NCBI GenBank assembly: GCA_036172245.1
Contig: JAYWIR010000002.1
Location: 6,572,001-6,636,000, forward strand
Direction: 5' to 3'
Length of the DNA: 64,000 bases
Origin: Raillietiella orientalis
Lineage: Eukaryota
In this document: positions 44,401 to 64,000 of the stretch, one piece after another
How positions within the stretch are numbered: the stretch's first letter is position 1
How the letters are laid out: every line of letters begins with the position of its first letter
Translations under genes and position numbers: made by a program
Notes under the pieces: generated by a model
What the model was told of the DNA's origin: nothing
Database searches by the model: none
What the model saw: the letters and a program-made list of their open reading frames with translations, nothing else

Positions 44401-46426
44401 ACCATGGACCATGCCTGCCTCCAGTGACCAAGGCGGATGTGGAAGGGCGAGAGCGGAAGGGCTGGCCGTCTTTCCCTACTGGGCCGGCTGTTACGCGGTT
44501 CTCACGACCCGCTGCCTCTGCCCACGTAGTGCCCTAGTCGGAGCCGAACTCTTTTACCTGCGCTCAGGCCGCCGGAAGAGCGGAGCAGTGGCCCTCCCGA
44601 TTTTCCCCTCTGCCATGACGCCCACCGACGCGCCCCGCCGGAACGAGAACCCGGTTCGTCCGGGCTCTACCCCGAGGAGGGGAGGGGGCTCTGAGCGGGC
44701 CGTGGGACAGGGGAGAACGGAAGCTCCTGGGAACCCCAGAGATGCACCCCAGGCTGCTGACCGCCCCCGTTCCCGAGGGCACGCTCGCCGGCACGCTGCG
44801 CGCCCGATTGGTGGATCCGAAGGCGCGCACCCTTCCCGGAGGGCCTCGCTTTCCGCGGATCGCGAAAACGCCCGATTTCTCAAGATTTCCAGGATCTCCC
44901 CGTCCTCTGCTCCGGGCGCCATCGCCGCAGCTGCCGTCGGCCGGAAACTCCCCGCGGTCTCCCGGAGGAACGCGGGCGAGCGAGCAGCGCGGCTGCCGCC
45001 GGGACGCGCATCATCGATCGGGCGGGCGCCAGGCAACTCCGGGCGAAATCGTGACGGCGCGCTCCCGGAAGGCTGCCTCATCCTCCCGGGAACGGGGGGG
45101 CCGGAGCAGTCAGTGGGGGAAGGAAGAGCCTGCGCAGCCGGTCGGGGACCCTCGCAGGCGGCAACGGAGCACCACCTCCCACCCTCTACGAGCACGCGCT
45201 TTAGCCCTTGGAACAGGCGGGACCCGCTCCGCCCCTTACGGGGACGAACGATCGGGGATGGTCGCAGTCCTCCCTTGAAACCTGTCGCACTCGCAGGCGC
45301 GGAACGAGCCTCCTCTCCGCTGCCCTTCTTCACGCTCCCGGGCCGCTTCCCCCTCCCCGCGATCGCGAGGCGACCTTCACGATCCCTCGCCCCGCTCCAT
45401 CTCCCCCTTCCACGATGCGGGGTAAGCGGGGCAGGGGTCCGCAAGACCTCTACATCCTTCCAAGGGTAGCACGCCTCTTCTGCCCTTCCTCTTCCAGGGG
45501 AGGCAGGTCGCCTCCCGGTAAGTCATGCCCCACCAACCCTCGTCCCCAGTCGCATCTTCCATCGGTAGCGGTTGCCTGGTCAGGCCGGAGGCGCTTCCGG
45601 GCCCGTGGTGGCTTTTCCCTCTGTGAGACTCCGAGGGAGGGACAAAGCAGGAGCGGATCTTCCTGGGGAATGAAAGTTCCACTCTCCCACCTGTCCCTTC
45701 CCGCCCACCACGCGCCTTCCCTGGAGCGTCCCCCGACTTTCCCAGAGAATTGAAAGGGAAAAAGAATAGGGAACGGAAGGGGGGTTGGTCTGTAGGGGAT
45801 GTAGGGGGGTGACGCCCTGAAGCGCGCGTCGGGACTGAGCGGGAGATCCCGGAGGAAAGACATGGGGAACGCGCGCGCGCGGAACCCCCTAATTGGGGCG
45901 TCCCCGCGTCCCTAATTGGACCTCACACCTCGCGGCGCGTCCCGCCCGCCGCTGCGGGGACGGCGGGGAGGAGGAGAGCGTCGCGTTCCCCCGTGCCCCC
46001 TTAGCCTTTCGCGCGCGTCCACGGCGCCCCTCCCAATTAGCGAGGCGCGAGGACGGGAAGCCTTTCTCGGGTCACGGGGACCTCCCGGGTCCCTTGGGAC
46101 GCACGTGTGCCGACGAGGGCCCACCCAGCGGGATCCTTCTCCTCCCGCTTTTCTAGCGCTGCTCACCCCCCACCCCCCCACTCTCAGCCCTCCAGGTTCT
46201 CGCGACCCGGCCCGGGGCTCACACGACACAGGGCTGCGAGGAAATCCCAATCTTCCCCCCTTCCCTTCCCCCCCTTCGTTGGGGAGAGAGAAGTGGGGGA
46301 TGACGGCACCACTGGAGCTCACACGCAGAGGAGCTTCCCGCGGCGACGGGGAGATGCCGCGCGCGTCGGCGACGGCGGCGGAGCGAGCAAGGCTCCCCCC
46401 TCCGGCCGAGCGCGCCGGCGCAGCAG

Positions 46427-46560
46427 CCAATGGGAGGCGGCTGCAGGCGGGGCTTGCGCGTGACGCACTCGCGGCGCGAGCCCGTCGCGCTCGCCGTCAC
46501 CTCCCCGCTTCCCGGGCCGCCCGCGCGCTTAAAGCTGCGGCACTGCCTCCCCGGGAGTAG
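46427..46560 (+). promoter_or_regulatory. Putative Tbx20 core/proximal promoter
   Basis: CCAAT at 46427, GC-box-like GGCGGGG ~46446, CRE half-sites TGACG 46461 and CGTCA 46495, TATA-like TTAAA 46529-46533 after a GC-rich BRE-like run; spacing suggests a TSS near 46560. Confidence 0.55.
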
Positions 46561-46707
46561 ACGGGCGGTGGCGGGCTCGCGCGGACCCTCACTGGTCTCC
46601 GCGGCAACGGGACGGCGGCGGCGAGTGCTGCAGCAGCGCGTCAGCGGGTCCCGCGCAGGCGCGCGACGAGTGTCTCCGGGGAGCGGCCGCCCGCGGCGGC
46701 GGCGGCG

Positions 46708-46900
46708 GTGGCAGCGGCGGTGGTGCTCGACGGCGGCGGCGGTGGCTCCACGGGGGGCGCGATCCCCCTGGCCAGGGGGCCCGCCACCGACTTCTCCATC
46801 GCGGCCATCATGGCCAGGGGCGCCCAGAAGGCGTCGCCCCCGCCGGCGGCGCCGAGGGCCGTCCGCCCCGCCGCAGGGGAAGCAGCCGGCGGACGACCAG
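46708..46900 (+). CDS. Tbx20: Tbx20 exon 1 (eh1 Groucho/TLE-binding motif); 5' boundary uncertain
   Basis: Encodes ...[17 protein letters not shown]...; strong donor CAG|GTGAGT at 46900/46901, phase 1, joining in frame to exon 2. In-frame TAG at 46558-46560 and no ATG before 46810. Confidence 0.85.
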
Positions 46901-49900
46901 GTGAGTCGGGGTGTTCCCCCACGTGCGGGAAAGGGACCAGGGAAGGAATGAGTGATGAAGGGGGAGGGGAGGAAGGATCTGCCCCTCACCCACCCTACCG
47001 TGGTCGTAGTTCGTGCATTCCACCGGGGGTCTTCGTGCGCCTCACCCCGTCTGCCCCTTCCTTCCCTCCCTCGCCCGGAGCTCCCGAAAGTGTGGGGGAA
47101 AATCGAGCCCCCTCCTCCTTCTCCTCTCTCGCTTTCCTCTTTTCCTTTTACCTCCCTTCGCCTGGTGGGCTCCTCTCCCTTGACCCTGCCCAAGTCCCCC
47201 GCCCAAGGTTCCTCTCAGGTAGGCCGTCCCGCCTGGCAGATCCTCGGGAGCGCTCCACCTTCGATCCCTGAGGGGTGGCCGGAGCCGGAAGGGAGGTCCT
47301 CCGCAGCCAGGAAGGAGCAACCCCGCTCTCCCCCCCTTATCCTCTTCCCCTCCCGCCCTCCCTTCCCTGAGCCACCCGGTGGGTGAGGGTCACGGAAGTC
47401 CCTGAGGGAGCAGGGGGAGGTCGCCGAGGCGCTAGCCTGCGGGCACTCACGGGTCCAGCGCTTCTGCCTCCATTCCCTCCCGGGTGTCATCGATCCTCCT
47501 TCCCCGACGGGAGGGGCAGTCCCCGGTTGCCAAGGGCAACGGCTCGGACGCGGCGGCGGCGACGGCGCCTTTCTCGCTCCGGTCCCGCGCGCCCGCCCGG
47601 CAGGCCCGCAGTGCGCCGTCTCCTCCCCCCGCTCGCCCAATCCTCTCGGGTCCGAAAGTGTCCGCGATCCTGACCCCGCCGACTCTCTCGAGGGAAAGGA
47701 GCGGCGAGGGTGGAGAAAAACCTGGGGCTGCGGTCCTGTTCCCCTCCCCGGTTCCCGGACCTTCTTTTTCCCTCCATGGCGTGGTCGGCCTTCCCTCCGG
47801 GCTGCACTCGCCGGGTCGGAGACCTAATCGGGAGAGCCCCCCAGAGCTTCTCCCTGCAGCACGGGCTCCCCATCCGTCCCCTTCCCGTGGGCACGCCGGA
47901 CTCCTCAGACTGTTCAGCGGGTAGCTCCCGACCCGCAGCGTGCGGACCTCGGGCTGCTAGGAGAAGCGGGGAAAGGTGGCGGAAGAGCCCTTGTCCGCTT
48001 CCTTTCGTGGATTTCCCTGGATCGAGGCAGCAGCTCCCTCAAGGGTGGCGGAGCGCCACCCTCGAGCCCGCTCGGGGCTCTCACCTGCCCTGCTCGGTGA
48101 CCGGACGTAAGAGGGGAAAGAGGAGGAGAAAAAGTTCCCCTTCCTGGAGGGGCGAATGGAAGGGGAGTAAAGGGGGGAGGGTGGTCAGGAGGTCAGGGAA
48201 AGGGGTCGGTTGGGTGGGTGGATTCTGCTGTCCCCGTTCTCACGATCCCTCCTTCCCTCCCGGCAGAGCGCCCCGCCGGCCCTCAGCAGCCGACGGACGA
48301 TGACGACGACGATGACGGTGGTGGCGCCGGTGGTGACACCTCGGAGGAGGTCAACGTGGATGCAGAGGAGGAGGAAGAGGAGTCCGGGTCGCCGGAGGGC
48401 GCCTGGAAGGCGGGTCGGGAGGACACCGGGTGTCCTCCCGCGGATGGCTCCGAGGACGGGGAGACGGCGGGTCAAGGGGCTCCCGGAGCTACCACCGCCA
48501 GCCCCCGCAGACCCTTCGTCAACGAGGCCATCCGTCCCCGCTGCACGTGCGAGGAGCTCAAGGCCGCCGACTGTTACCTGGAAACGAAGGAGCTGTGGGA
48601 CAAGTTCCACGAGCTGGGCACGGAGATGATCATCACCAAGACTGGCAGGTGGGTGTGGTCTGCCCCGGCCCTTCTCCGGGAGGCGCGCCATCCCCCGTGG
48701 CTCCGTTGCCGCCGCCGGCGCCCGCGGTCGCGCCCCCCGCGGGCGCGGTCTCTCCCAGCTCTCCCCTCGCGCACGCGCCCGTCACGGTCTGCTGCCGACC
48801 GCCACCCCTCCCTGCCCCATTGTGCCTGCGGGCTCCGCGCACAAAGGGGGGCGCAGAGCCCCTTCTCCCGGCCGTCCACGGGTCGCCGCGCAAGGGAGGA
48901 GACGCCCATCCCCCCCCCGGGCGCGCGCGCATCTGCCGATGCTCCTTCTGCTGCATGGCAACAGCCGTTGCTCCCCCCCATCCTTTTCCACCCCTACGGT
49001 TGAGCGGGAGCTGGGGGGAGGGGAAGAGGGGCAGCAGCAGCCGCGGAGCTGCGCCGTCGGGGTTCGCCCCCTCCCCCGCGACGAATCTCCCGGCGGACGT
49101 GTCAAAACAACTCGCCGACGTCGTTAATTAATTCGAGGGGAGCCCAGCGAGGGCGCGCAAAAGGGGGGGAGGGGCTGGTCGGCCGGCAGGCCGGATGGAC
49201 GCGCCTGCGGGGACGTTCGGCAGCGGCGCGAGCGCTCCGCCTCGGGCGCCGCTGCGCGCGGGAGCGCGAGTGGGCGGTGGCAACAACTTCCCATGTCTTT
49301 CCCTCTCAACCCGTCCGCACGTCCCCTCCCTGCCCACAAAGAGGGCGGGAGCGGGAGGAGGCGCATCCCCCCTCTGTCCCCTTCCCTCGCCTCGTCTCGT
49401 CCTTAATACTCCCCTCTTTCTCTCTGCTCCGCAGGCGGATGTTTCCCACGGTGCGTGTGTCCTTCACGGGTGTGAAGAACGAGCGGAGGTACGCGGTGCT
49501 GCTGGACGTCGTCCCCGTGGACAACAAGCGCTACCGCTACGCCTACCACCGGTCCTCGTGGCTGGTGGCAGGCAAGGCCGACCCCCCTTCCCCCTCCAGG
49601 CTGTACATGCACCCCGACTGCCCCTTCACCGGGGAGCAGCTTAAGAAACAGGTGGTCAGCTTCGAGAAGGTCAAGCTGACCAACAATGAAATGGACAAGC
49701 AGGGTCAGGTGAGTGGACCCTTTCCCCTACAGCCACGCCCCTTCTCTCTCCGCAGATCGTCCTCAACTCCATGCACAAGTACCAACCCAGGGTGCACCTA
49801 GTCATATGGAGGGACGTCCCCATCACGAGCCTGGGGTGTGAGGAGTACCGGACCTTCATCTTCCCGGAGTCCGTCTTCACGGCAGTCACCGCCTACCAGA

Positions 49901-52169
49901 ACCAGCTGGTGAGAGCGCGCGCGCACCCCCAAGGGTGGGACGACTGCCGCCGCTACCCTACTACCCCAGTCCCTGAGACTCCTCCGGGCGGCGGCGGAGG
50001 CCGAGAGGGAGAGACGCCCGCGGCAGCCTCCCTCTGGGCGTGACCTCTTCTCCTCCCGTCGCTCTTCCGTTTTTTCTTCCTTCTTCTCACCCTCCTCCTC
50101 CTCCCCTGGGAACTGCGTGCGCACCGGGAAAGCGGGAGAACGGGAAAGCGGCGGCGATGATGGATTTATTGGGATGCGCGGACTCGGCGGCCATAAAACA
50201 CCTGCCGTCCTGTGTGCGATGTCCGTTAGATGATCAGCCTCCGCCTGGACCACCGTGCGCTTTCCTCCGCCCTCACAGGGCGCGAGACGCTCGCGGCGGA
50301 ATCCAGCGGGAGCGTGTCCCTTGCGGCCCACCGCGGAAGGCAGCGGTGCGGAAGGGCGACGCCTCCGCGCGGACCCGCGCCTGGCCGCTCCAGGAGGTGC
50401 CTCGGTCAGCGTGGAGCCACATCCCTGCCGGCACGTCTTCCGCCTGCCACGTGCCGCCGGCGTCGCCCCCGGGGCTGCTCGTGCCACCCGCAGCCCCTTC
50501 CACGTGCTGCGGGCGTTCGATACCTCCACACCAACCCCGTTTAACGGACCCCTCTTCCTTCCTACCTCGCCCCGTACTGGCCAGAAGATTTTCTAGGCGG
50601 AAGCCGCCAAGGAGAGCGCTGGTCGGTTTCCAGGGCATCCCTGGATGCTCTCGTGGGAGGGCTTCCGGGAACGGAGACCCTTCCTCTCCCCCCCTCTTCC
50701 CCACACTCGGCGCCCGTGTTCCCAGGGGTCCAGCCGCTGATGCGTTGCCTTTCGCATTCCAGATCACCAAGCTGAAGATCGACAGCAACCCCTTCGCCAA
50801 GGGCTTCCGGGACTCCTCGCGGCTATCGGACTTTGAGAGGTAAGGCGTGCGTCTTCATCCCCTGAGTCGGCGAAATGGGTGGCGCCTCGTCCCTTGTCTT
50901 GCCCCCTTTCAACCCCACACCACGCCATGTCGCCACCCTCGCGTGCTTTTCTCCCTCACTTCCCCTTCTTTCTTTACGCCACCACCAGCAGCATCAGCAG
51001 CAGGGGAAGATCGAACCCCCCATCTCTTTTCCTTCCCAGCTTGCCTTTCCTCTACTCTCACCCCTACCCAACTTTTCCTCCCCTCGCCTGTCGGTCTGAT
51101 GAGGAGGAAGGAAAGACGACAGAATTTTTTTTTTTTTTGCGGCCTTCCCTTCGCCTTCCCAGGGAGCAGGGACGACGCGTTCCTGGTGGGACCAGCCATC
51201 TGTCTTCCCCGCGCGGTCACATGAGAGGTCGCATTGTTCCGCGTGACAATGCTCTGCCCCGTTGTCTTTTTTTCCCCGCTCCCCCTTCCTCTCCTGCTCT
51301 CTTCCTTTTCCTCCTCCTCCTTCCCCTCCCTCCGCCATGTCGTCGGAGCCGCCGTCATCGTCCCGGCCGCCTCGTCGTTTGGGGCGAAGCGCCAAGGCGA
51401 AAGGGCGGCTCTTCGTCCCGAGGGAAAAGAGGGGTTGGGAGGACGAGGAGGCGGGACAAGGCTTCTCATTCTCCTCCTCCTCCTCCTCGCATCCATCTCC
51501 TTCCTCCGCCGAAGACGGCGAAGGCGACGCCCGCGAGCCATCGGCACCACCGACTGCTCCTCCTGACGACCCCTCCTCCTCCTCAGGGACACGATGGACT
51601 CGCTGTTCCTGGACCGACACTACCAGCGGCAGCCGCTGCGCCCCGTCGGTGAGGCGGCGGCCGCGGCGGACGTCGAGCCCGACGCCCTGGCCGCCATCGA
51701 AAAGATGCAGCTGATGCGGGCGCAGCTGTCCTGGGGTGCCGCCCGACCTACCGCCGGCGGCGGCGGACACCATCCTAGTGCCGGAGGTGGTGGAGGAGGA
51801 GGGCCGGACGCGGCTTACGGACTGCCGTCCCACCTGACCCAAGTGTGTGCCCTCAGCAACTCGCGGCAGCTGCCCCTCACCCTGTCCGGTCACCTCTGGT
51901 CCCAGTGGACGGCGATGCAGAGCTTCAGCCAGCTGAGCTTCCTGACCGGCCTGGCCGCCTCCCAGCCCCAGGCCGCCGCCGCTGCCGCTGCTGCCGCCGC
52001 TGCTGTGTCCCTCAACTCGTCCTCCTCGGACCTGAAGTCCCCCAAGGCCGTCCTGCCGGCAGTGCACGCCCTTAACCTGCACCGCTACGCGCCGTACCTC
52101 GTCCCGCAGATCAAGGGCGGATCGCCCTTGTCCGCGGGCGACTTCCTCTCGGACCAGCCCAAGTCGTAG
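46708..52169 (+). CDS. Tbx20: T-box transcription factor, Tbx20/H15/midline subfamily; 6 coding exons join(46708..46900,48267..48648,49435..49708,49756..49908,50763..50839,51587..52169), ~553 aa, start codon uncertain
   Basis: Spliced translation gives eh1 ([10 protein letters not shown]) and a full T-box ([28 protein letters not shown]...[18 protein letters not shown]...[32 protein letters not shown]...[32 protein letters not shown]). All five introns are GT..AG with matching phases (1,2,0,0,2). Total 1662 nt = 554 codons including [19 protein letters not shown] and [17 protein letters not shown] are typical of Tbx20. Confidence 0.96.
48267..48648 (+). CDS. Tbx20: Tbx20 exon 2 (acidic linker and start of T-box)
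   Basis: Acceptor CCTTCCCTCCCGGCAG|; encodes [57 protein letters not shown]; donor AG|GTGGGT. Confidence 0.93.
49435..49708 (+). CDS. Tbx20: Tbx20 exon 3 (T-box core)
   Basis: Acceptor TCTCTGCTCCGCAG|; [10 protein letters not shown]...WLVAGKADP...[12 protein letters not shown]; donor CAG|GTGAGT. Confidence 0.97.
49756..49908 (+). CDS. Tbx20: Tbx20 exon 4 (T-box)
   Basis: Acceptor CTTCTCTCTCCGCAG|; [16 protein letters not shown]...[11 protein letters not shown]; donor CTG|GTGAGA. Confidence 0.97.
50763..50839 (+). CDS. Tbx20: Tbx20 exon 5 (end of T-box)
   Basis: Acceptor TTTCGCATTCCAG|; [25 protein letters not shown]; donor AG|GTAAGG. Confidence 0.97.
51587..52169 (+). CDS. Tbx20: Tbx20 exon 6 (C-terminal domain, poly-Gly/poly-Ala, RYAPY motif)
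   Basis: Branch-like CTGAC near 51563, acceptor CCTCCTCCTCCTCAG|; the phase-2 join gives ...[15 protein letters not shown]..., resembling the segment after the T-box in Tbx20 proteins; GC3-rich codons; TAG at 52167-52169. Confidence 0.9.
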
Positions 52170-52453: not shown

Positions 52454-54427
52454 CTCGTTTTTTTTTTTTTCTCTCTCTCCTTGTGGTTTCCGCTCCTGCT
52501 GGATGAGGCCGGCCAGTGGGCCTTCTTCCCCTCTCAGTCCCCTACTTCATCCCCAGTCTCCTCTGAGATGCTGTCCTCGAGCTCGCGGGCCAGGAGAGCC
52601 CCTTCGTAGGAGCAGACCAGGGAATGGAGGGGAGCCATGCCGCTGCATCTTCCGGGGGCCTCACTCGCCCGGGCAAAGAGAGCGGCGTCCTTCCCTCCCC
52701 TCCTTCCCTCATTTTTCCAGGTGGCACGTCGCTGACGGAGGCATTCCCGCGATTCCCATCATGTCGCGGCCCCATCAAAGGAAAGTTGGGTGGTTTGGGG
52801 GCGAAAGTGGATCTGGGAGGAAGGACCCGGGAGGCAGGCAGGACCCCCGTAGCACCTCCCAACGACTTTCTTTCTCGTCGCTTTCCCCAGCCGGGTGTCC
52901 GCTTCTGGAGGTCCGGTACCTTCCGGAAAGGGTGCGGAGGTTCCCGGGCGGGGAGTCCCGACCACTCCGACCGGGCGCTCGCTGGGGAGGCGCGTCGGTC
53001 CGAACCCCTCCTGTGGCTCCCTCTTCAACGCAAGGGGAGGCATCCGGACGGCCGCCGGCCGCCGCCCGAGGGTACAGAGAAGCCCTCCACCTTCAGGTAG
53101 GGCGCGTTCCCGAACGGGTCACTGGGAAGGGAGGCCCACCACGACGGTCGTGCATGGAAGGGCGCCCGCCTACTCCGTTTCCCCCTTATTCCCTCCCTCG
53201 TTCCCGCTCGCTTCCTCCTTTTCCTCCCCTCTCCCCTTCGCCTCTCTCCCTCCTCTTCCCCTTCTCGTTATCCCGTGGAGGGAGGAGGAGCTCTGGGGAA
53301 AGGCGCCTCATCCATCTTCGCCCGCGTCCCCGGTGTTCCGCGCGCGCGCGTCGTCGTCCCCGGATGGGTCAGCGGAAGTTTCCGCCAATGGGAAAGGCGG
53401 CTCCCCACCGCCGAAGCACCGACCCCACGCGCGCGACAGAGCCTGGTGGAGGAGCGGGAAGAGAACGCTCCCGCCGCTCTCGCGAGCATCCGGGCCTCGG
53501 ACGCGCGAGGCGGGCGGGGCAGAGACGGCAGCTTATCGATTCGGGGGCTGCTGCGGCTGAGGTCGTCCTCTCGGGAGGGAGCAGACCAGCAGCCACTCCT
53601 CGCAACGGCAGCTGGCAGCGGCGAACGAATCTAAGATGGACGCCGGTGGCGAAGGCAGCGCTGCCTGCAGGCGTCTTTGGCCCTGCCGGTCGCGCGCGTG
53701 GCCCGCCCCTCCGCGGAGGCCACGGCCGCGTTCAGAGAGACCTGCGTTCCCTGAGGTGGTTCTGCCTGACACCCGCGGGTGGCGGGAGGGGGGGAGGGGG
53801 GAGAACGCGACTCTTTTCCCTCACTCCACGGCCCCGGAGCAGAGGTCTCCAGGGTTCGGACGTGCGCGCGCGCGCGCACTCCCTCGGACGTCCGGCTTGA
53901 GCGCGCGCGCCGCTCGCCCGCAAGCAGCCCCGCCGCGCGCGCTTCCCTCGCCTCCGCTCTCCCCCGCGTCCCGCGCTTCCCGCTCGCGCCAGCCCACCCA
54001 AAAGCGCATTTTCAGCTTGTTGCCCGGAGAGTCCATATTTCTTCGCTCCTCGGCTGTCAGGGCGGGACGCTCCTCGCGACACGGTGGACGGGCCTCGTCC
54101 TTCCCCCTCCCCCTCCGCCTGACGGGTGAGGTGATGCATGGAGAGATACGGCGCTCTCAGCATCCCGCCGAGGTTTGTCAGTACGGGCGCCATAAATCAC
54201 GGTCAATGTTTCAAAACTTGGCCGTCAGACAATCGTATCGATTACCTGGGTCCCCACGAGCGCGACAATGGCCCTTGTTGGCACAGCGACGCTGCCGCCC
54301 GCCGCGGCTATTAACGGGCAGGCCATTTGTACCGGGACCGCGCTCCCCCTCCCGGGGGGAGGCTGTCGCCTGCCCCCTTTCCAGCTGCCCCCCTCACCCT
54401 CGCTGCGCCAGCCCACCTTCCACCACC

Positions 54428-54430
<3 letters not shown>

Positions 54431-54460
<30 letters not shown>
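54431..54460. repeat. (CT)15 microsatellite
   Basis: Perfect CT dinucleotide run. Confidence 0.95.
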
Positions 54461-54463
<3 letters not shown>

Positions 54464-54919
54464 TCGTCTCAGCATCTCAAGCCTCCTCGGCACGATGCTG
54501 GCAGCCCGGCCCAACCCGCCTACCCAACTTCCCTCCGCTACCGCTTTGTTTTCCTCTTCGCACATCTCCCCATTTTCACCTGTCATCCGCGCGAATCGTC
54601 ACTCCCGCTCTCTTGAGCTCGGGAAGGAGAGAGGGGGAGCAACGAGGAGGGGGATGAATGGCCCGCCGACGGGGTGGGCAGAGAGAAGAAGTAGAAAAGA
54701 TGGTGCTGCATCCGATCCGTGCAGGAAGGCGGCTGACAGCCGCCGGCGAATTCCGGGGCGGGAGAGCGGCGACTAGCCCTGCCCGATCAGCGACCGACGA
54801 TCACCGAGCGGTCGTCTCCACGGAAACGAGCAGGGGGTCCGTCTGCCTCCCGTTCTTTCGGACCTCCGCTTCCTTCCTGCCCGTTTCTGAGGACGAAAGA
54901 AGCGGACAAATTCCGCGCA

Positions 54920-55398
54920 TTCTTCTTCCTCCTCCTTTCTTCTGTCTCCACCGTTCCTCCCCCCACCTCATTCCTACTTCTTTCCACCTTCTCTTCCTCT
55001 TCCTTCCATTCTTTTCTTCTTCTTCGCCCTTCATTCCTCCTCCTTCTCCATTCCTCCTTTTCTTCCTTTTTTTTTTTTCTTCTCCTCCTCTTTTCCTCCT
55101 TTCCCTCCCTTCCTTCATACCTCCTTTTCTTCTTTTCCTTCTTTTCCATTCCATCTCCTTCTACTACTTTATTCCACATTTCTTCCTTCTTCTCCTTCCT
55201 TATTCCTACTCCACTCTTTTTCCTTCTCTTCCTCCCATCCTCCTCCTCCTCTCTTTCTCCACCTTTTCAATTCCTTCTCCCTTCCTTCTCCTTCTCCTCA
55301 GTCCCGTTTCCTCCTTCCCCTTTTCCTCCATAACGCTTCCCTGTGCCTCATTCCTCCTTGTCCTCCTTCTCTCTTTCCACCTCCTCCCCTCCTCCTCT
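54920..55398 (+). repeat. Polypyrimidine (CCT/CTT-rich) low-complexity tract
   Basis: ~480 bp strongly C/T-rich on the + strand with scattered A. Confidence 0.9.
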
Positions 55399-58339
55399 CG
55401 TATCCCAGATCCGTATATGCTGCGTGCACATCCGCGCATGTAGAAGCAGGGAGCGTTGTCCTTCTCCGACTTCTCTTTCTCTCTGGGAAATATTTTTATC
55501 CCGTTTCGCTCCGGTGGCCTCCAGAGGAGTGGAGGAGGCGCGTCTGACGGGAGGCGCGCAGGGCGGCGAGGAAGGGAGGCATTTCCCCCGTTCCCCCCTC
55601 TGCTCTGGAAACTACGCCGGGCTTCTCTTTGGAAACGAGGTGGGCAGGATTTCCGTAGGTGCCTCGCGCACGCATGGCCGTTGCTGCGGTCGCGGTGCGA
55701 GAGGAACCGCCCACGGGAAGCGCTCCCGTGCACCGTCTCTTACAGCGGACAGGACGCGCCCGTGCGTCCGGGCTCTCCCGGCAAGATTTCCATTTTTCAT
55801 CACTTTGCCTTACCTCCCCCTTCCTTCTCCTTTCCTTCTCTCATGGCTTCCAGAGAGGAATCCGTCCAGGCGGCGGCAGCTGCCCCTCGCGGCTATCGGC
55901 ACCGGAGCGCGCGCCATCTTGCAAGGGAGACCCTTTCCTTCCGGAAGCGGGTGAAGGGAAGGGGCGCGGTGGGAAGAAAGAAGAAAGGACAACGACAAAG
56001 AAGAAAAACAAAAAAAAAAGACAGGAACAGCTCGTCCGTCATTCCTGTTGATTAACCCGATCTTCTTTGGAGGGAGAGCGCCACCGCGCGGTCCAAAGGC
56101 GCTCCCTGGAAACGCCCATGTCCGGGAGAGAAGGCAGAATGTTGGCCACGCCGCTCGCCGCTGGAGGGAGGGCAAAAGGGAATGACGTGGGGGATGGAGA
56201 GGAGGCCCACTTCTTGAGCGTGTCCTCCTCCCTTGCCCTTTTTTCTCCTCCCTTGCCCTTTTTTCTCCTCCCGCGCCCTTTCACGAGTCTCCTGATGGTC
56301 CCCTCCGGCGCTCCTGGACTGAGGCCGCGGGTGAGGTAGTGGCAGAAAGGGAAGGGGAAGCGCGTTGGCGGGATTCGCCTCCCAGCCGCCTCCATTCATC
56401 TCCCGCTCCGCGGAAGATGGCCGCCTACGTCGCCGGAGCGTTGTTTTCGCCACCACCCTCCCTCCCTCCCCTCCCCCCTGGTGCCTCCTTTCTCTTCCTC
56501 GTCACTCCTTTTTACGAGCGCATGGGTCTGCTTAAATGTTGTGTCTGTTTTTATGCTCTTTTAACAAAGGTGCGTGGGGCTCTTTACGGCTTGCGACGCC
56601 ATAAAGATTGCGCGGCGTCCGGCCCTCCCCCGCCACCATCCTTTCCTCCTCCCCCCGGAGACCCACGTGTGGGGCCAGCGTCTTTACGAGCCATACGTCA
56701 AGGTGAGGACAAGTCGTAAACGGGGGATTAATTGAAATGTATCCTCCGGAGCCGGGCCTCCAGAGCTCCAACAAGAGCCTCGCACTGAGAACCGAGTGGG
56801 AAAGGCGCCGGCCGGAAACCGAGCGACCTCCTCCTCCTCGCCCCGCGACGAGGGTCGTCACGCCAGCGCCAGCTCCAGGCGGACACGCACTCTTAGTGGC
56901 GCGCGGCATGGCGGAGGCAGCAGCCTCGTCGCCGTCGCGACGCTGGACCGCGCGCATTGCTCCTCCGACTGGAAGGCCGCGAGCGCGGAATCCTCTCCGC
57001 CTCTGCTACTGCATCACCCGCTATCCCTGCGAGAAGGGAGAGTTGTGGCGCCTCTCTCTGGTCCGTTTTGCTGGCCCGGTCTTCGACTTGGTCGGCGCTG
57101 CGGGAGCCACTCAGGACGGCAGGAAGCCTTCCAGGGAGGCGCTGCATCCTGAAGCCAGAGGCAGCGGAAAAGCATCCACTCTCTCTCCCCGTTCCTGATC
57201 TTTCCTTCCTGGCGCTCCTTTTGCAGTCCAACCGGGCAGGAAGTGGGCGGGGAAGTTCCAACGCTGGCGCACGCGAGCGCCGCTGCTGTGGAGCGCCTTT
57301 TTGTTTATCAGCGTCTTTTCCGCGTAAGAAAAGTGTTGACGGATGGAGGAGAAGCGTGAAATGAAGCTCATTGCTACTCCTTCCGTCTCTTCCCTTCCTC
57401 CTTCCTCCATTCCTTGTCCTCCTTCTTTCCTCCTCTTCTTCTCTTCATCCTCTATTCCTCCTCCTCCCCTCCCTTCCCCTTCATGACTTGCTCCTTCTCG
57501 GACTGCTTCCAGTCAGATGTCCCGCTCGGTTGGCAGAGGTCTTCGTGTACCGCTGTTCCCTTGCGCGCAGGCGAGTCAGTAAGAGCAGCTGAAATTTCGC
57601 GTTACTCCAGGAGAGAGCCAATCCCAGGAGCCAGTGGAGGAGAAAGCTCTGCCCACGTTCCTTCCTTCCTTTCTTTTTTTCCTCCTCTCTCCGCCCCTTT
57701 TCCATTCCTTTCATCCTCCCCCTTCTTTTTTTTTTCTTTTTGCCTTGCTCTTCTCCACGTGGAGCTGGGACGTGCATCCCATCTCTCCCGTGCCTCTGGC
57801 AGGAAGCCAAGCCGACCCGGAAGATGGCGTCCGCATCCCTCCTGACACTCTCTTCTGGCTCCCTGCCTCATCGCTGCTCCTCCCTCTTCTGCCTCCTCCT
57901 TTTATGCGCTTCTTCGCTTTCCCGAGCATTTCGCTCCTCCTTTTTCCTTCCGGGAAGAGGGTGCTGCGCCGGTCGGAGCGCCTCCGGGCAAATGGCGCTT
58001 CCCCTCGCGCGCGCGACCGGCCCTTTCCCGCTCGTCTGAGGAAGGTAAGAGGGGAGAAAGAGGGAGAAAAGAGGAAGAAAAACGTGGCGTCCCGCTTCCT
58101 CCTCCTCGTCGTTCTCTTTCGTAGGCGAGGCCTGGATTTCGCGGGCGAAGCCGCGATCCCTGCGAACGTGGCACCCGCCGGCGAGCTGTGTAAGGGGGGG
58201 GGGAGGGGATGGCCTGGCCGGAAGCCCCGGAGGCGGACCGCCTCCTACGCAGTCAGACAATGGAAAGAGAGCTGCGCGCGCACGTTATCCGTCCAGTGCT
58301 TGGCCTTTCCGGAGAAAGCGGGCGAGGAAGGGAGGAGGG

Positions 58340-58460
58340 GGGGGGGATGAAATGGAAGGAAAAAAAAAAAAAAAAAAACGGAAAGAAAGAAAGAAAAGAA
58401 AAAAAGGAGAGGAGGAGGAGGAGGAGGGAGAGGAAGGGAGGGGGAGGAGGTGGAAGAAGA
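58340..58460 (+). repeat. Polypurine tract (A-run, AAAG and GGA repeats)
   Basis: Directly visible purine-rich low-complexity sequence. Confidence 0.85.
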
Positions 58461-60329
58461 CCCAGCTGGGCGAAGCAGAGGCGGCGGCCATGAATCATCC
58501 ATTCAGCGCACTCCTCTTTTGTCCGGCGCGAAGGCTGTGCGCCTTCCCTGAAAGCCGGAGGCGAGGCTGCGCGCAGTGACGAGGCCTCGGAGGTGAAAGC
58601 AGAGGCCCACGAGAACGGCGGGGTCGAAAGTTGTCACCTCAGAGACGCCGACCCGCCGCGGAGGCAGGGGTGACTCGGCTCGGAAATTGCCCCCTCCCCC
58701 CTTTCCCCCCTTTCTCTCCCCCCTTTACCTTCACTGCCCAGGCCGAGCGCTCCTGGCTCATCCCCGAGCGGCGTGCGAAGCGAAACGGATGATGTGGTGA
58801 CAGGGCTCGTCCGCTGGCAACAAAAGCCCCGCTCCTCCCGAGGCGGAGGGAGAGGGGGGGAGGGGGCGCGCCTTTGATCCGGTGGCGCGGGGCCCCACAA
58901 TGACTGTTTTGACATCGGCTCCTCCCGTGAATGGTCGCCGCGACTCCTCCAAAAAGTCACAAAAGGGGGACCTCCTTCTCGCGTTGGGGCGGTGTAGGGA
59001 ACTCCTCGGGCGCGCGGATCACGAGAGACCGGTAGGGAGGGCGCTTCTGCCGCCCCCTCGCTTCCCCTTTCCCTCCCCCCTTCAGCCCCAGCCAGGAAAT
59101 CCCACCTCTCGGATGGGACCTCGCTCGCTGTGCCGGAGGAAGGACGGAGGCAACGCTGCCTCCTCTCTCCCCCTACTCCTTCCGCCCAAGAGGAGGCTGG
59201 GCGAAGGGAGATGAAGGGCGCGGTCGACGGCGGTCCGACACCTAAGGTGGGCAGCGAGCAGCTGGGAAGGAACCTTCTCCAGCATCTCCTTCAGCATCCC
59301 GCGGCGTGGCTGTCCGGTGGTGGACGCAGGTGAACGCCACCTGCAAGCGCGTCTCACGTTCTCACCCTCCCCTTCTTCCTCGTTTCTCCACGGGAAGGAC
59401 GGGAAGAGGGAGATGGTGGGTCGCTGCACGCGCCCACTCTCTCCTGGAGGACTCTGCGGCGGCGCTCCTGCCGACGGATTTCCCAAATTGACCCGGCATG
59501 CGCTGCCTCCCTGCGCGAGTGGCAAAAAAAAGAAAAGGGGGAGAGGCAGCGAAGGAGGGAGGAGGGAGACTTGGAGGGAGAGAGAGGATGCTGATTGATT
59601 TAATGAAAGATCCGCAATCACGAGGGAACGCGATGGCCGTCTGGAATTTATGGGGGAGGCGGCGCAAGCCACCCTCCCGGATGACGAGGGGCGAGCGTTA
59701 ACAGCACACGCACACGCACGGGAAGTAGGGAGGTGGGGAGGCGGAGGAAGGGGAGGGGCGCCTCGGAGGGAGCGAAAGGAAGAACTGCCATCCAATTTCC
59801 GGAGCGGAACTTCCCAGGTGCCGGCGCCGAAACTCGGACTCAGGGGGCGCGAAAGGATGGGCCCCGGGCGGGGGAAGGAAGTCGTCGGGACGGCGGGAGA
59901 GGGATGAGGGAGAGCGAGAAGGCTGTCAGCGAGAGGGAGCACGCGGAGACGGCGCTTCCTCCTGCCCGCAAAAACGGGGGGCCGTGCAGGGACCGGAGAG
60001 GCCTTCCCGGCTTCCGGGAGCGAGAGCGTTCCCCTCCCTCCGACCACAGGGTTCCAGGAACGTTCTCCTCCTGGAACGCTGTGGTCGGCAGGAGAACGCG
60101 ACCACCACATGGGAAGGGCCACACACGTGGCAGGGAGCCGCGACGACGGTGGCGGTGGGCCGTCCCGGAAGAAGCCTCTGTTCAGTCGGGAGCCGGAACA
60201 TCTTTCCGTCCAGAGGGCGCAGACGCATCCAGGAGGAAGAGGACGCTGAGGCAGATGAGTCCTCTCGATCCTGAGGGAGAGGGCCACTCCTCCAGCCTCC
60301 CTGAAGTTCCTTTGGAAAGAGCCACCTCC

Positions 60330-61300
60330 TTCCGTGAAGGAAGGACTCCTGCTGGAAGATTTCTCCTCTTGGGAAGAGCACTTCCCGCGGATGACCTTTC
60401 TCCTTCCAGGTCGTCCCTTCCGCCCGCGCCGAGCGGGAGCAGATGCTCGCAGCTAATTAGGGCGGGAATGCCGTTCCCGGGGAAAGCAGGGAGGATCCGC
60501 TCACCGCGCACTGGTGGCACGCCCGCTGATTGATCCCCTGCCCGTGAAAGGGGAGAGCGGGCGGCCTTACTGAGCGCCGGAACGCGGGCTCGTCGCACGC
60601 GCTCTCTCCCGAGTGCAATCCTGCGGCGGTGTCCTGCTCCCGGGCGTCTGCGAGCGATGTTCGGGCGGAGCAGCTCGGAGGCCCTTCCGCAGAGCAGAAA
60701 AAGCCGGGAGCCGCGCGCCGGAGCCTGGTCCGCGGGGTAGCATCCGGCCCTACGCCTTCGTGATGAAATGCCTTTAAGGAAGGCACCTCCCCGATGCGAC
60801 GGTCCCCTCCCGGCAACCGCTGGCGTCCGGGGACCCGCTGTCAGGCACGAAGAAAAGGACGGGGCCTCGGGTTGTTCTGGGAAGCGGGGGGTCCTCGGCA
60901 GTTCCCCCTTACTCGCTCCGAGGATGCCTTCCTGGATGGTCCGCTGACGCGGTGGCTCCTCCCGTCCGGTTCCCGAAAGAGCACGCGCGTGGCTGGCCAA
61001 GGCCCTGTTTACCCCCTCGTTGTACGCGCTGACCGTCGGTCAGGCCCTCTAGCACCGAAGAAGGAAGACGCCGGGAGTTCCGGAGCCTCCGTGCCGGACT
61101 TTGGGACGCTGAGGGAATCTCCAGTTGCAACTGGGAGGAGTGGAGGAAAGGAGGTTCATCCCGGGCGCCGCTGAAGCAGCAGCGGACCACGGATGTCTCC
61201 CCCATCCCTTCTGGAGCGAAAGCACACGAAGGACGACGAACGGGTACTTCCATTTCCCCTATTTTTAGAGGAAAGGAAAGGAAGGGGAGGAATTCAAAAC
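60330..61300 (+). mobile_element. Decayed L1/Tx1-like RT fragment
   Basis: LGRALPADDL (cf. GKAPGxDGL), QG.PV / PSLYALTV across a frameshift (~61000-61040; cf. QGCPLSPxLYxL), HTKDD (cf. YADD). Confidence 0.35.
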
Positions 61301-64000
61301 CCTGGGCACACGATTCAGAAGGGAGCGAAGTCGTCGATCCCCGCACCCGCTGCTCAGCGTCTTCCTGCCGTCCGAAGAGGAGACTGCTTGTCATCCTCGG
61401 GGAATCTGCGGTAGCGGTCCTCTGCGCGGGTTCTTCTCTGCCCTCCCTTCCCCATCCCGCCGGGCCATTAAAACTGCATGTCTCGAGGACTGGACTCTCC
61501 TACCCCGAGCGGGACGCGTCCGATGCGGGCATTAATCATGGCGCGAAGCAGCCATCATTTATAACCATCCCCGCAGCCGCCTTTAATGCACCCGAGGTCT
61601 CGATTAAGGGCCTCCTTCCTCCCTCCCCCCCCACACACTCTCGCACTCCGTCATATATTTTTAATTCCTGCGAGGAGCCAAGGTCGAGGGAAGGCGCGCC
61701 GACCACAACCCGTCCCGAGGCCTGGCCTAGCGGGGATGACACGGACGTTTCCTTTCCTCCCCCCCCCCCTTCCTCCTCTCTGACCTTTCTCCCCTGCACC
61801 CGGAGTGCCCGAAGGAACCTGCAGGAGCAAAGAACCCCTCCTCCCGTATTCGGCGCTCGCTCGCGAGGAACGCGCCTTCTCCCGGTAAGCCGCCTGAAGA
61901 GCGACCGAGGTACCTGCTCTCCCCCGGAGGCCTCGCTCCCGCCAAAAGCTCCTGCAGGAGCGTTCGGCAGAGCGACCCGAACAGCCGACCGACCTTTTTC
62001 GGCTATTGGTCTTCGCGCGCGAGGGTTCCTCCCTGGACTCTTCAATCGGGAGGGCCTCGCTTTCATCCGCGCGATGGGTAAGCCATCAAGCATTCCCCGA
62101 TAATTAGCTCGCAGGCGGTGTTCCCACCGGCGCGGAGTGCTGCGTCTACCAGGCGCAGGGGGGGTGAGGGGAGCCCTCGCAGGACTGGAGCGATTCCCAT
62201 CCGGAGGAACAATGGCCTCCACCTCCGAGGAAATTTATGTTTTCGTTTTTGTTCCGCCTCATTGTCCACCTCCCTCTCTGCGCGTCTTCTGTCTTTTTTT
62301 GGGCCTCATTGTGAGGCGCCGAGATGTTTACGGGGTCCCATCCGACCTCCTGAGAAACCGACAACGCCGGTCCTCTCTTGCTGCGGGACACAAAACGCGG
62401 AGCTACCACCAAAGCCACCACCTGGGACTCGCGGAGCACGTCGCCAAGGGAACCCGGGGGGCCTCATTCAAGAGGAGTAGTGATGTATGGCTGAAAGGCG
62501 CGCGCGACGGTCAGCGAACCGTGCGCACAGAGACCGAGGCTGCCCTTGGCAGGTCGTGCGCGCTCTCTCCCGCGGAGCCAACACGGAACGGAGGTCAAAC
62601 CAGAGGAACGGCCCCGTTCTCTCCTCCTCCGTGCCAGGCGGCATCTCCCACTCCCCGCCTTCCTCCCCACCGACGGGAAGAATCGAAATCTGACCCGCGT
62701 CCGGAACCGCCCCTGGTCTATCTTGGCTGATTCGTAGGCACGAAGAGCACGCCTCCGGCTCCCGAGGAAAGCGCAGAAGCAGTAGCAGCAGCCCGCGGGC
62801 AGCAGTTCTTGGACGGGGGCAAAGAGGAAGAGGCGTTGACCCCCACGTGGGATTTCATTCCCAGGGGAGAAGACTTCGAAGGCAGCATTCCCGATCCTTC
62901 CTGAAGGAGCGCATGCTTTCGCCCCTGTGGAGCTTTGGATCCTCTAGCAGCTCTTCTCCCTCCGTTTCTTCCATCCATCAAGCTAGAGACGAGACCCTCT
63001 TCCAGCTGCTTCCGCGAAAGAATCAACAACAGATGAAGAAGAAGAGGTAGTAATTGCGTTTGTCAAACAAGAAGTGCTGCCAAATTAATGGATTCTTAAC
63101 GGGAGCGGCAAGCCGAATGTCCTTCCTCCGCCACCCAGGAACACGTGCATTAATTGCACGGTTCGCACGCATGGGTGCGTTCCCTCTTGTTTATCCGAAG
63201 CATCTGCTTAGAGCGCGCGCATCCGAAGCGAGGAATGCGCGCTGCGCGCATTCTTGCTGCGCGACAAACCCGAGCACAGCCAGCGGTCGTGGTAGTCCAG
63301 CGGCCTCCCTTGGAGCTCGCGCGCGCACACGCGCGGAAGGAGGGAGGCAGGGAAGGGGGGATGACCGCAGGGCAGGCCCCGCTCGGGGCGTGGCAGGATC
63401 CCTCCCGCGCGGCCCTCCCGCGAAGCCATCGGAACCTCGGAAGCGGAGCCGCAAGAGATCGGCTGACCGCGGCAGTAATTTGTTCGGTTTACAAGCCTCC
63501 GAAAGGTCACTCCCCGTTCCGTAAACAACGGGTAATGGAATTTGCGGGTCACCGTAAACTTTTGCGCGGATTCAATTAGGCCCAAATCAATAAGGCGCGC
63601 TTCGTGGCCGGGGTTGTTTACCGGCGGGCGGCCACGAGGGCGCGCGCGTGCTCTCCCGGACGCTTTTCAGAGTCCTGGGAGGAACGGGTGGTTCTGCGAG
63701 CGCGGAAAGGTTTCGGGAGTGGGAACGACGCGGCCAGCCCTGCTTCCTGCGCCGCTCTCGACCCACTCCTCTAGCCAGCCCCCCGACCTAGATGGCTGGC
63801 GCGGCATTCCTCCTCTTCCCATTCAGGACCCTCTTTGTTTTACTCCGCAAGCTGTTCCCGCTCATAAAAAGATCCCGGATGCCCGCCCAGGAAGCTCGAA
63901 TTCATTACATCCTCCGTCACCCAAGGCGAGTACATTAAAATCCGCATCGCAAGGAGGCATTGTGAACGCGGCTCTTCGGGAGGGAGACCTCCCTCCCGAC

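What the first reader, a model, noticed from the sequence alone, without database searches (positions are those of the whole stretch)
46558..46815. Tbx20/H15 exon 1 has no AUG before its eh1 repressor motif: candidate GTG start and translational switch for the Groucho-binding motif
Seen: the eh1 frame is closed upstream by TAG at 46558-46560, and no ATG occurs in any frame from there until 46810, which is the last residue of FSIAAIM itself. In-frame GTGs at 46708 and 46720 sit in strong context (GCG-GTG-G: -3 G, +4 G) and are followed by very GC-rich sequence. CCAAT and TATA-like elements just upstream suggest this is the first exon. Established: eh1 recruits Groucho/TLE, is conserved at the Tbx20 N-terminus, and near-cognate initiation is leaky. 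Inference: GTG initiation gives the eh1-containing repressor, and leaky scanning to AUG 46810 gives an eh1-less T-box protein from the same mRNA.
Basis: partly seen in the sequence, partly recalled or inferred. Interest (0 to 1): 0.78.

Follow-up and report, generated by a model that had tools for sequence, protein, structure and literature searches.

The report
T-box gene start codon reads GTG
An intact crustacean-type Tbx20 (H15/midline) gene has GTG where its relatives have the ATG start codon, so its co-repressor-binding motif is made only if translation starts at a non-ATG codon or the assembly is wrong, and no read or RNA data were available to decide.

Summary
In the eh1 frame there is a TAG at 46558 and no in-frame ATG until 46810, the last codon of FSIAAIM. 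No ATG occurs in any frame from 46433 to 46809. That ATG-free gap is not unusual here: P is about 0.19-0.27, and the window has 33 gaps of at least 300 nt.

The gene is a complete six-exon Tbx20/H15-midline orthologue with GT-AG introns and 548 codons counted from GTG 46723. It matches all 106 T-box columns that are invariant in 77 relatives.

GTG 46720 and 46723 lie 24 and 23 codons before the eh1 Phe. Nine of 9 insect-like genomic loci have their ATG 22-25 codons before it, in the same exon. V-L-D-G aligns with the orthologues' M-L-x-G. No credible splice acceptor lies between the stop and the motif.

The ancestral start therefore reads GTG in this assembly. Real GUG initiation with leakage to AUG 46810 is my best reading (0.4). 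A base or repeat error or a rare allele, AUG-only use, and a hidden upstream exon remain open. A regulated switch has no support. No reads, RNA or close relatives could be obtained.

The parts
46427..46431 (+). CCAAT string, overlapping the out-of-frame ATG at 46430
   Evidence: Read directly. Promoter function was not tested.
46529..46534 (+). TTAAAG, a weak TATA-like string
   Evidence: Read directly. Not tested, and no transcription start data exist.
46558..46560 (+). TAG that closes the eh1 frame upstream
46693..46746 (+). Imperfect GCG/GGC trinucleotide array that contains all three GTG codons. A 19-nt two-copy repeat lies at 46714-46753.
   Evidence: Tandem Repeats Finder: period 3, 17.7 copies, 75% matches; period 19, 2.0 copies, 85% matches.
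46708..46710 (+). In-frame GTG (G at -3, G at +4, C at +5), 28 codons before the eh1 Phe
46720..46725 (+). Two adjacent in-frame GTG codons at the position where orthologues have their ATG. They lie 24 and 23 codons before the eh1 Phe.
   Evidence: Alignment A1 puts V46723-L-D-G under M-L-x-G. Insect-like loci have their first Met 22-25 residues before the Phe.
46734..46789 (+). Predicted stable stem-loop downstream of the GTGs
   Evidence: ViennaRNA gives -30 to -36 kcal/mol for 50-60 nt windows starting at 46734-46740. The region is not more stable than shuffles of the same composition.
46783..46818 (+). [12 protein letters not shown] block; the eh1 core FSIAAIM is 46792-46812
   Evidence: All 12 residues match many arthropod orthologues. 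G+C by codon position over 46780-46821 is 0.50/0.64/1.00.
46810..46812 (+). First in-frame ATG (A at -3, G at +4); it is the last residue of eh1
46723..46900 (+). Coding part of exon 1 if read from GTG 46723. The donor is CAG|GTGAGT, with GT at 46901-46902 and phase 1.
48267..48648 (+). Exon 2: acidic linker and start of the T-box
   Evidence: Pfam T-box match, tblastn, splice junctions.
49435..49708 (+). Exon 3: T-box
   Evidence: Pfam PF00907, E = 6.1e-29.
49756..49908 (+). Exon 4: T-box, preceded by a 47-nt intron
50763..50839 (+). Exon 5: end of the T-box
51587..52169 (+). Exon 6: C-terminal region with the LWSQWTA and NLHRYAPY blocks, and the stop codon

Best explanation
Exon 1 is the first coding exon of an intact, constrained pancrustacean Tbx20 (H15/midline) gene. 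Its ancestral AUG has been replaced by GUG inside an imperfect GGC/GCG repeat.

Proposed mechanism, all of it inferred:
- A scanning 43S complex crosses an AUG-free, roughly 80% G+C leader.
- It meets three in-frame GUGs with a purine at -3 (46708, 46720, 46723).
- It is slowed by a stable stem-loop that begins 8-23 nt after them.
- A minority of complexes start there. They make a protein of about 548 residues with the Groucho-binding eh1 motif at residues 24-30.
- The rest scan on to AUG 46810 (A at -3, G at +4). They make a 519-residue T-box protein without eh1.

Shown: the sequence anatomy, the homology of position, and the intactness of the gene. Inferred: every translation step, and that the G is real.
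For: (1) Gene model. Six exons, five GT-AG introns, one terminal stop, 548 codons from 46723. The best hits are arthropod Tbx20/H15/midline at 79-88% identity.

(2) Not a pseudogene. The window differs at 0 of 106 T-box columns that are invariant in 77 relatives, and at 1 of 128 columns that are at least 95% conserved.

(3) Motif conservation. [12 protein letters not shown] is identical to distant arthropods. The 30 codons from 46720 to 46809 have G+C of 0.70/0.67/0.97 by codon position. The 53 codons before them have 0.81/0.83/0.81. So the coding signature begins at the GTG cluster.

(4) Position. GTG 46720 and 46723 are 24 and 23 codons before the Phe. In 9 of 9 insect-like loci (about 3 lineages) the first Met is 22-25 residues before it, in the same open frame with a stop upstream. 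V-L-D-G aligns with M-L-[A/V/L/D]-G/T.

(5) No alternative route to an ATG. The 9 AGs in 46561-46791 have a pyrimidine fraction of at most 0.50, against 0.85-0.95 at real acceptors. No ML.G- or MEDNC-like start peptide lies between 20000 and 46800.

(6) eh1 is functionally required elsewhere. A two-residue EH1 change in mouse Tbx20 is embryonic lethal and parallels the null (PMC10629681, passages). Drosophila Mid needs eh1 to repress (PMC9167623, passages). Silent loss is therefore unlikely.

(7) Precedent. DAP5/eIF4G2 starts only at GUG and TEAD1 only at AUU. Downstream hairpins and CGG repeats raise GUG and ACG use (PMC5666671, passages). The predicted stem of -30 to -36 kcal/mol exceeds the published -15 to -21 kcal/mol threshold (PMC11165317, abstract and Discussion part 1).
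Against: - No read, RNA, ribosome or peptide evidence exists.
- All orthologues seen have ATG, so the GTG is not shown to be conserved. No close relative was found.
- The GTGs lie in a trinucleotide array and a 19-nt repeat. Assemblies err there, and the V-L-D-G match could be low-complexity chance.
- The NAT1 enhancer motif is not met: G or A replaces the critical C at -7 (PMC13754004, sections 6 and 7).
- GUG was a poor starter in the structure-assisted assays (PMC11165317, Discussion part 1).
- The fold is no better than shuffles.
- With AUG 46810 in strong context, most product would lack eh1. That is hard to reconcile with an essential motif unless a paralogue compensates.
Confidence: 0.4

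Rival explanations
1. Assembly artefact or rare allele. The organism's normal gene has an ATG here. Either the G at 46723 (or 46720) is a base error. Or an imperfect-repeat segment that carried the ATG was collapsed. Or the sequenced haplotype carries a rare, possibly heterozygous, start-loss allele.
For: The site lies inside a 17.7-copy imperfect GCG array and a 19-nt two-copy repeat in roughly 80% G+C DNA. That is the kind of place where assemblies err. One A-to-G change explains everything. Perfect motif conservation is expected under this reading. Mouse heterozygotes for an EH1 mutation are viable (PMC10629681, passages), so a heterozygous allele is tolerable.
Against: About 1.6 kb of coding sequence in six exons shows no frameshift, no stop and no change at 106 invariant columns, so local quality looks good. 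The window has no N. By my own rough estimate rather than any call, a random error hitting this one base is about as unlikely as a real non-AUG start.
Confidence: 0.25
2. The GTG is real, but translation starts only at AUG 46810. This copy now makes an eh1-less T-box protein. The motif is a recent relic, tolerated because a paralogue still supplies the repressor.
For: AUG 46810 has A at -3 and G at +4 and is the first AUG after a 380-nt AUG-free stretch. Arthropods often have two or more Tbx20 paralogues, as in barnacles, cockroach and scorpion. A predicted locust isoform (P0011) lacks eh1.
Against: All 12 motif residues are intact, and 29 of 30 third positions before the AUG are still G or C, against 0.70 and 0.67 at positions 1 and 2. 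Untranslated sequence in an 80% G+C background should lose its A and T at positions 1 and 2. This fits only a very recent loss. eh1 is required for Tbx20 and Mid function (PMC10629681 and PMC9167623, passages). No paralogue lies in the window, and the rest of the genome could not be searched.
Confidence: 0.2
3. An unseen upstream exon carries the ATG and splices into 46561-46790. Alternatively, the true start lies further 5' in sequence arranged differently from this model.
For: Nine AG dinucleotides exist in the interval, and CCCCCTGGCCAG|G at 46775 is the least poor. No cDNA is available to exclude it.
Against: All 9 AGs have a pyrimidine fraction of 0.30-0.50, against 0.85-0.95 for real acceptors. 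In 9 of 9 orthologous loci the ATG and eh1 share one exon. The region homologous to the ancestral start (V-L-D-G) is still in place and contiguous with eh1. No start-like peptide was found upstream.
Confidence: 0.1

Closest known systems
EIF4G2 (DAP5/NAT1), which starts only at GUG, and TEAD1, which starts only at AUU
   Same: The main ORF of a regulatory protein has no AUG before conserved coding sequence, and a near-cognate codon has a purine at -3 and G at +4 (PMC5666671, passages).
   Different: Their non-AUG codons are conserved across vertebrates, whereas all relatives seen here have ATG. The NAT1 context GCCGCC at -9 to -4 is replaced here by GCGGCG or GCAGCG (PMC13754004, sections 6 and 7). 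That motif is reported as mammal-specific.
FMR1 CGG-repeat-associated initiation at upstream ACG/GUG (FMRpolyG), and structure-assisted (START) initiation such as PTEN-beta
   Same: GUG codons lie just 5' of a GGC-type repeat read as glycines, with a stable downstream structure 8-23 nt after the codon (PMC5666671, passages; PMC11165317, abstract and Discussion part 1).
   Different: Only about 5 GGC/GGT units follow the GTGs, far fewer than in expanded repeats. The product would be a normal protein, not a homopolymer. The structure is only predicted and is no better than shuffles.
Leaky-scanning isoforms of transcription factors (C/EBP alpha/beta type)
   Same: One mRNA and two in-frame starts, with the shorter protein lacking an N-terminal regulatory module (PMC11109482, seen only as a search listing and the start of its abstract).
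   Different: There both starts are AUG and the isoform ratio is known to be regulated. Here the upstream start is hypothetical and no regulation is shown.
Tbx20 / Midline / H15 eh1-dependent repressors
   Same: T-box, N-terminal FSIAAIM and C-terminal blocks.
   Different: There is no ATG before the motif.

Membership tests
Tbx20 / H15-midline subfamily of T-box factors | T-box DNA-binding domain | tested here: met
   Pfam PF00907 on exon 3 (E = 6.1e-29) and exon 2 (E = 3.6e-07). The window differs at 0 of 106 invariant columns.
Tbx20 / H15-midline subfamily of T-box factors | Closest relatives are Tbx20 orthologues rather than other T-box classes | tested here: met
   The best 120 of 4056 hits are almost all arthropod TBX20/H15/midline at 79-88% identity. 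In the tree the gene sits inside a pancrustacean group, beside barnacles with support 89/86, which is not strong (33 of the 120 proteins, chosen by hand).
Tbx20 / H15-midline subfamily of T-box factors | N-terminal eh1 motif | tested here: inconclusive
   The motif is encoded perfectly and in frame with exon 2. Whether it is translated is the open question.
eh1 (Engrailed homology 1) Groucho/TLE-binding motif | FSIxxI[LM]-type heptapeptide | tested here: met
   FSIAAIM is identical to the orthologues; 76 of the 120 listed proteins carry an eh1-type heptapeptide within their first 150 residues. The consensus wording is recalled; the orthologue match comes from the calls.
eh1 (Engrailed homology 1) Groucho/TLE-binding motif | Binds the Groucho/TLE WD domain | not testable with these tools
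   Known for mouse Tbx20 and fly Mid (PMC10629681 and PMC9167623, passages). No Groucho sequence from this organism was available.
Genes whose main ORF starts at a non-AUG codon | Conserved coding sequence with no in-frame AUG between it and the upstream stop | tested here: met
Genes whose main ORF starts at a non-AUG codon | Near-cognate codon in good context (purine at -3, G at +4) | tested here: met
   46708 and 46720 have G at -3 and G at +4. 46723 has G at -3 and C at +4.
Genes whose main ORF starts at a non-AUG codon | The non-AUG codon and the extension are conserved in related species | not testable with these tools
   No close relative was found and no genome is held. Distant relatives have ATG.
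Genes whose main ORF starts at a non-AUG codon | Direct evidence of initiation (ribosome profiling, N-terminal peptide) | not testable with these tools
   No sequencing run was listed.
NAT1-motif-enhanced non-AUG sites | GCCGCC at -9 to -4, with C at -7 and G at -6 critical, and a base other than G at +5 | tested here: not met
   The -9 to -4 bases are GCGGCG (46708, 46723) or GCAGCG (46720). Position -7 is G or A and -4 is G. G at -6 and a non-G at +5 are met (PMC13754004, sections 6 and 7).
Structure-assisted (START) initiation | Structure of at least -15 to -21 kcal/mol beginning about 14-23 nt after the codon | tested here: inconclusive
   Stems of -30 to -36 kcal/mol are predicted to begin at 46734-46740. 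That is 23 nt after GTG 46708 and 8-15 nt after 46720 and 46723. This is prediction only, and z = +0.56 against shuffles.

The most novel reading that the evidence does not exclude
A lineage-specific AUG-to-GUG change, produced inside a GGC repeat, has made the Groucho-binding motif of an essential T-box repressor depend on near-cognate initiation. The ratio of eh1-bearing repressor to eh1-less protein would then be set by start-codon stringency (eIF1, eIF5 and 5MP levels, helicase activity). That would be a translational rheostat on a developmental selector gene.
Probability: 0.15. Interest if true: 0.65.

Novelty: new member of a known kind. Interest (0 to 1): 0.36.

Why it matters
If the GTG is real and used, this would be a natural experiment. 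A developmental repressor's co-repressor motif, essential in fly and mouse, would be placed behind a weak start codon, with an eh1-less protein as the default product. That would give a direct handle on how much Groucho recruitment a Tbx20 factor needs. It would also add an arthropod transcription factor to the short list of proteins made only from non-AUG codons. In practice, automatic annotation will call ATG 46810 and silently delete the motif. If the GTG is an assembly error, the finding is only a quality flag for GC-rich repeat-bearing first exons.

Tried and rejected
- Sequencing runs: none was listed for 46300-50900, neither RNA nor DNA holders. Read laying could therefore not be used, and the G/A question and the transcript 5' end stay open.
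- Whole genome: none is held, so a paralogue search was impossible.
- Earlier scan notes: nothing was found.
- Exon-1 protein search among proteins of 102-328 residues: 249 candidates, none at E <= 0.01.
- Close relatives: none above 88% identity in the most conserved exon, so conservation of the GTG could not be tested.
- Upstream start-like peptides (ML.G, MEDNC and similar) at 20000-46800 on the + strand: none.
- tblastn of 11 orthologues against the window: only this one gene, and no second eh1 exon.
- "ATG desert" as evidence: rejected as uninformative.
- Exceptional RNA structure: rejected, z = +0.56.
- NAT1 motif: not met.
- RNA editing restoring AUG: rejected from general knowledge, because A-to-I editing cannot turn G into A.
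- The long frame +1 ORF from ATG 46430 as the true start through a frameshift: rejected. It would add about 120 unconserved residues, whereas orthologues have 12-62 residues before the motif.
- Literature: searches for non-AUG with Tbx20 (2 papers, unrelated by title) and for midline, H15, T-box and start codon (1 paper, a millipede genome) found no description of such a start. Subscription journals and supplements were not searched.

Full report
**What is there**

The window is eukaryotic and G+C-rich: 46-71% per 2 kb, and 71% at 46-48 kb. Translating from 46558 gives a stop, then an open frame that ends in ...[18 protein letters not shown]....

A listing of + strand ATGs shows 46300 and 46354 (frame 0, before the TAG), 46430 (frame +1), and then nothing until 46810. 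ATG 46810 is the M of FSIAAIM. TAG 46558 is the only in-frame stop in 46258-46905. In-frame near-cognate codons include GTG at 46708, 46720 and 46723.

**How unusual is it**

The 380-nt ATG-free stretch is not unusual. It is 79% G+C, and 1.65 ATG are expected, so P(none) is 0.19. In a local first-order simulation, 0.267 of 5000 runs had none. The window has 33 ATG-free gaps of at least 300 nt. Only the in-frame statement carries information: conserved coding sequence with no ATG before it.

**The gene**

Six exons on the + strand form one frame:
- exon 1, ending at 46900
- 48267-48648
- 49435-49708
- 49756-49908
- 50763-50839
- 51587-52169

All five introns are GT-AG (1366, 786, 47, 854 and 747 nt). 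There is a single terminal stop. Counted from GTG 46723 the frame is 548 codons; counted from ATG 46810 it is 519. The exon 1 donor (CAG|GTGAGT) leaves one G, which joins AG of exon 2 to make GAG. The eh1 frame is therefore the real reading frame.

Exon 3 retrieves 4056 proteins at E <= 0.001 among 4161 candidates. The best 120 are almost all arthropod TBX20/H15/midline at 79-88% identity. Pfam finds a T-box in 2 of the 150 longest ORFs of the window and nothing in the other 148. tblastn with orthologues finds no second T-box gene.

A maximum-likelihood tree used 33 proteins picked by hand from the 120. It places the gene inside a pancrustacean group, beside barnacle sequences, with support 89/86. 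That support is not strong.

For the constraint test I kept the 77 of the 120 hits that have both T-box landmarks; P0001, P0003, P0004 and fragments were dropped. The window differs at 0 of 106 invariant columns and at 1 of 128 columns that are at least 95% conserved. The gene is intact and constrained, and the local assembly shows no disruptive error.

**Where relatives start**

Of the 120 proteins, 76 carry eh1 within the first 150 residues, with the Phe at residue 13-63. The ML.G-type proteins have it at 16-28.

I aligned eleven N-termini with the window. V46723-L-D-G falls under M-L-[A/V/L/D]-G/T, and T, D, F, S, I, A, A, M are invariant. The tool printed the first GTG as M under the table 11 start rule.

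A scan of metagenome contigs for ATDFSIAA gave 480 pattern matches. Nine were confirmed. Seven of the nine are near-identical, so they represent about three lineages. In 9 of 9, the ATG and eh1 lie in one open frame with a stop upstream, and the first Met is 22-25 residues before the Phe.

In the window, GTG 46723, 46720 and 46708 lie 23, 24 and 28 codons before the Phe. The GTG pair therefore occupies the ancestral start position.

One caveat applies. The GTGs lie in an imperfect GCG array (46693-46746, 17.7 copies, 75% matches) and in a 19-nt two-copy repeat (46714-46753, 85% matches). The short V-L-D-G match could therefore be low-complexity chance.

**Coding signature**

G+C by codon position is as follows:

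| Region | Position 1 | Position 2 | Position 3 |
|---|---|---|---|
| 46720-46809 | 0.70 | 0.67 | 0.97 |
| 46561-46719 | 0.81 | 0.83 | 0.81 |
| Other exons (position 3 only) | n/a | n/a | 0.81-0.92 |

Periodicity begins at the GTG cluster. The test is weak, because 46810-46899 is certainly coding yet shows 0.83/0.83/0.80.

**An upstream ATG exon?**

The exon 2 acceptor has 0.85, and the tract before exon 3 has 0.90-0.95. The exon 4-6 acceptors are visibly pyrimidine-rich. No start-like peptide occurs upstream. An upstream exon is disfavoured but not excluded.

**Context for a GUG start**

Codons 46708 and 46720 have G at -3 and G at +4. Codon 46723 has G at -3 and C at +4. AUG 46810 has A at -3 and G at +4.

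The NAT1 enhancer is GCCGCC(A/G)NNXXXG, with C at -7 and G at -6 critical. It is not met, because the -9 to -4 bases here are GCGGCG or GCAGCG. That motif is also reported as mammal-specific and weaker in Drosophila (PMC13754004, abstract and sections 6 and 7).

Stems of -30 to -36 kcal/mol are predicted to begin at 46734-46740. That is 23 nt after GTG 46708 and 8-15 nt after 46720 and 46723. Published optima are:
- 14 nt (Kozak)
- 18 nt (PTEN-beta)
- 20-23 nt with a threshold of -15 to -21 kcal/mol (START)

These figures come from PMC5666671 (passages) and PMC11165317 (abstract and Discussion part 1). However, 142 of 200 shuffles fold at least as well. GUG also performed poorly in the START assays. 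The anatomy is compatible with a GUG start but not diagnostic of one.

**Why the motif should matter**

A two-residue EH1 substitution in mouse Tbx20 is embryonic lethal and parallels the null, while heterozygotes are viable (PMC10629681, passages). Drosophila Mid recruits Groucho through eh1 and needs it for repression (PMC9167623, passages).

**Weighing**

Four readings all explain a perfect motif without an ATG.

(a) A real GUG start with leakage to AUG 46810. This fits the position, the coding signature, the intact gene and the importance of eh1. I give it 0.40.

(b) An error, a collapsed repeat or a rare allele. The repeat context raises this reading and the clean exons lower it. I give it 0.25.

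(c) AUG-only use, with a very recent relic motif. This requires that almost no time has passed since the loss. I give it 0.20.

(d) A hidden upstream exon. I give it 0.10.

The weights rest partly on my own rough base rates, not on any call. A predicted locust isoform (P0011) that lacks eh1 shows only that eh1-less forms are modelled elsewhere.

**Known or new**

Proteins made only from non-AUG codons are known: DAP5 from GUG and TEAD1 from AUU. So are repeat- or structure-assisted GUG starts, as in the FMR1 leader (PMC5666671, passages). If real, this is a new member of that kind. Two searches found no report for Tbx20, H15 or mid.

No reads, RNA, genome or close relatives were obtainable. 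The claim stays a hypothesis.

Noticed in passing
window 46430-46951, + strand, frame +1: ATG 46430 overlaps the CCAAT string and opens a 174-codon frame that stays open across all of exon 1 and past its donor. If transcripts began upstream of it, this would be a long ORF overlapping the main one and would block it. This argues that the cap site lies 3' of 46430.
   Followed up: partly
window 46714-46753: A 19-nt two-copy tandem repeat (85% matches) spans the GTG GTG pair and the following glycine codons. It suggests slippage or duplication as the way the ancestral ATG was lost, or as a place where an assembly could collapse.
   Followed up: partly
window 49709-49755: A very short (47 nt) GT-AG intron lies between T-box exons 3 and 4, while the other four introns are 747-1366 nt.
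   Followed up: no
window 1-46000 and 52500-64000: Apart from two ORFs that overlap the T-box exons, none of the 150 longest ORFs (148 aa or more) in the window has a Pfam match. The gene sits in what looks like a gene desert, as is common for developmental regulators.
   Followed up: partly
window 54000-58000: Strongly strand-skewed low-complexity DNA lies downstream of the gene (GC skew -0.24 and AT skew -0.30 at 54-56 kb). It has long C/T-rich tracts that read as poly-Ser/Pro/Leu/Phe in several frames.
   Followed up: no
L001-L007 (metagenome contigs): Seven near-identical contigs from metagenomes carry an insect-type Tbx20 exon 1 (MLLRTMQEDG...[12 protein letters not shown]). This is animal DNA inside metagenome assemblies.
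   Followed up: no
P0011 (locust TBX20-like isoform X2): This predicted isoform starts inside the acidic linker and lacks eh1. Eh1-less forms made through alternative first exons may therefore exist in insects.
   Followed up: no
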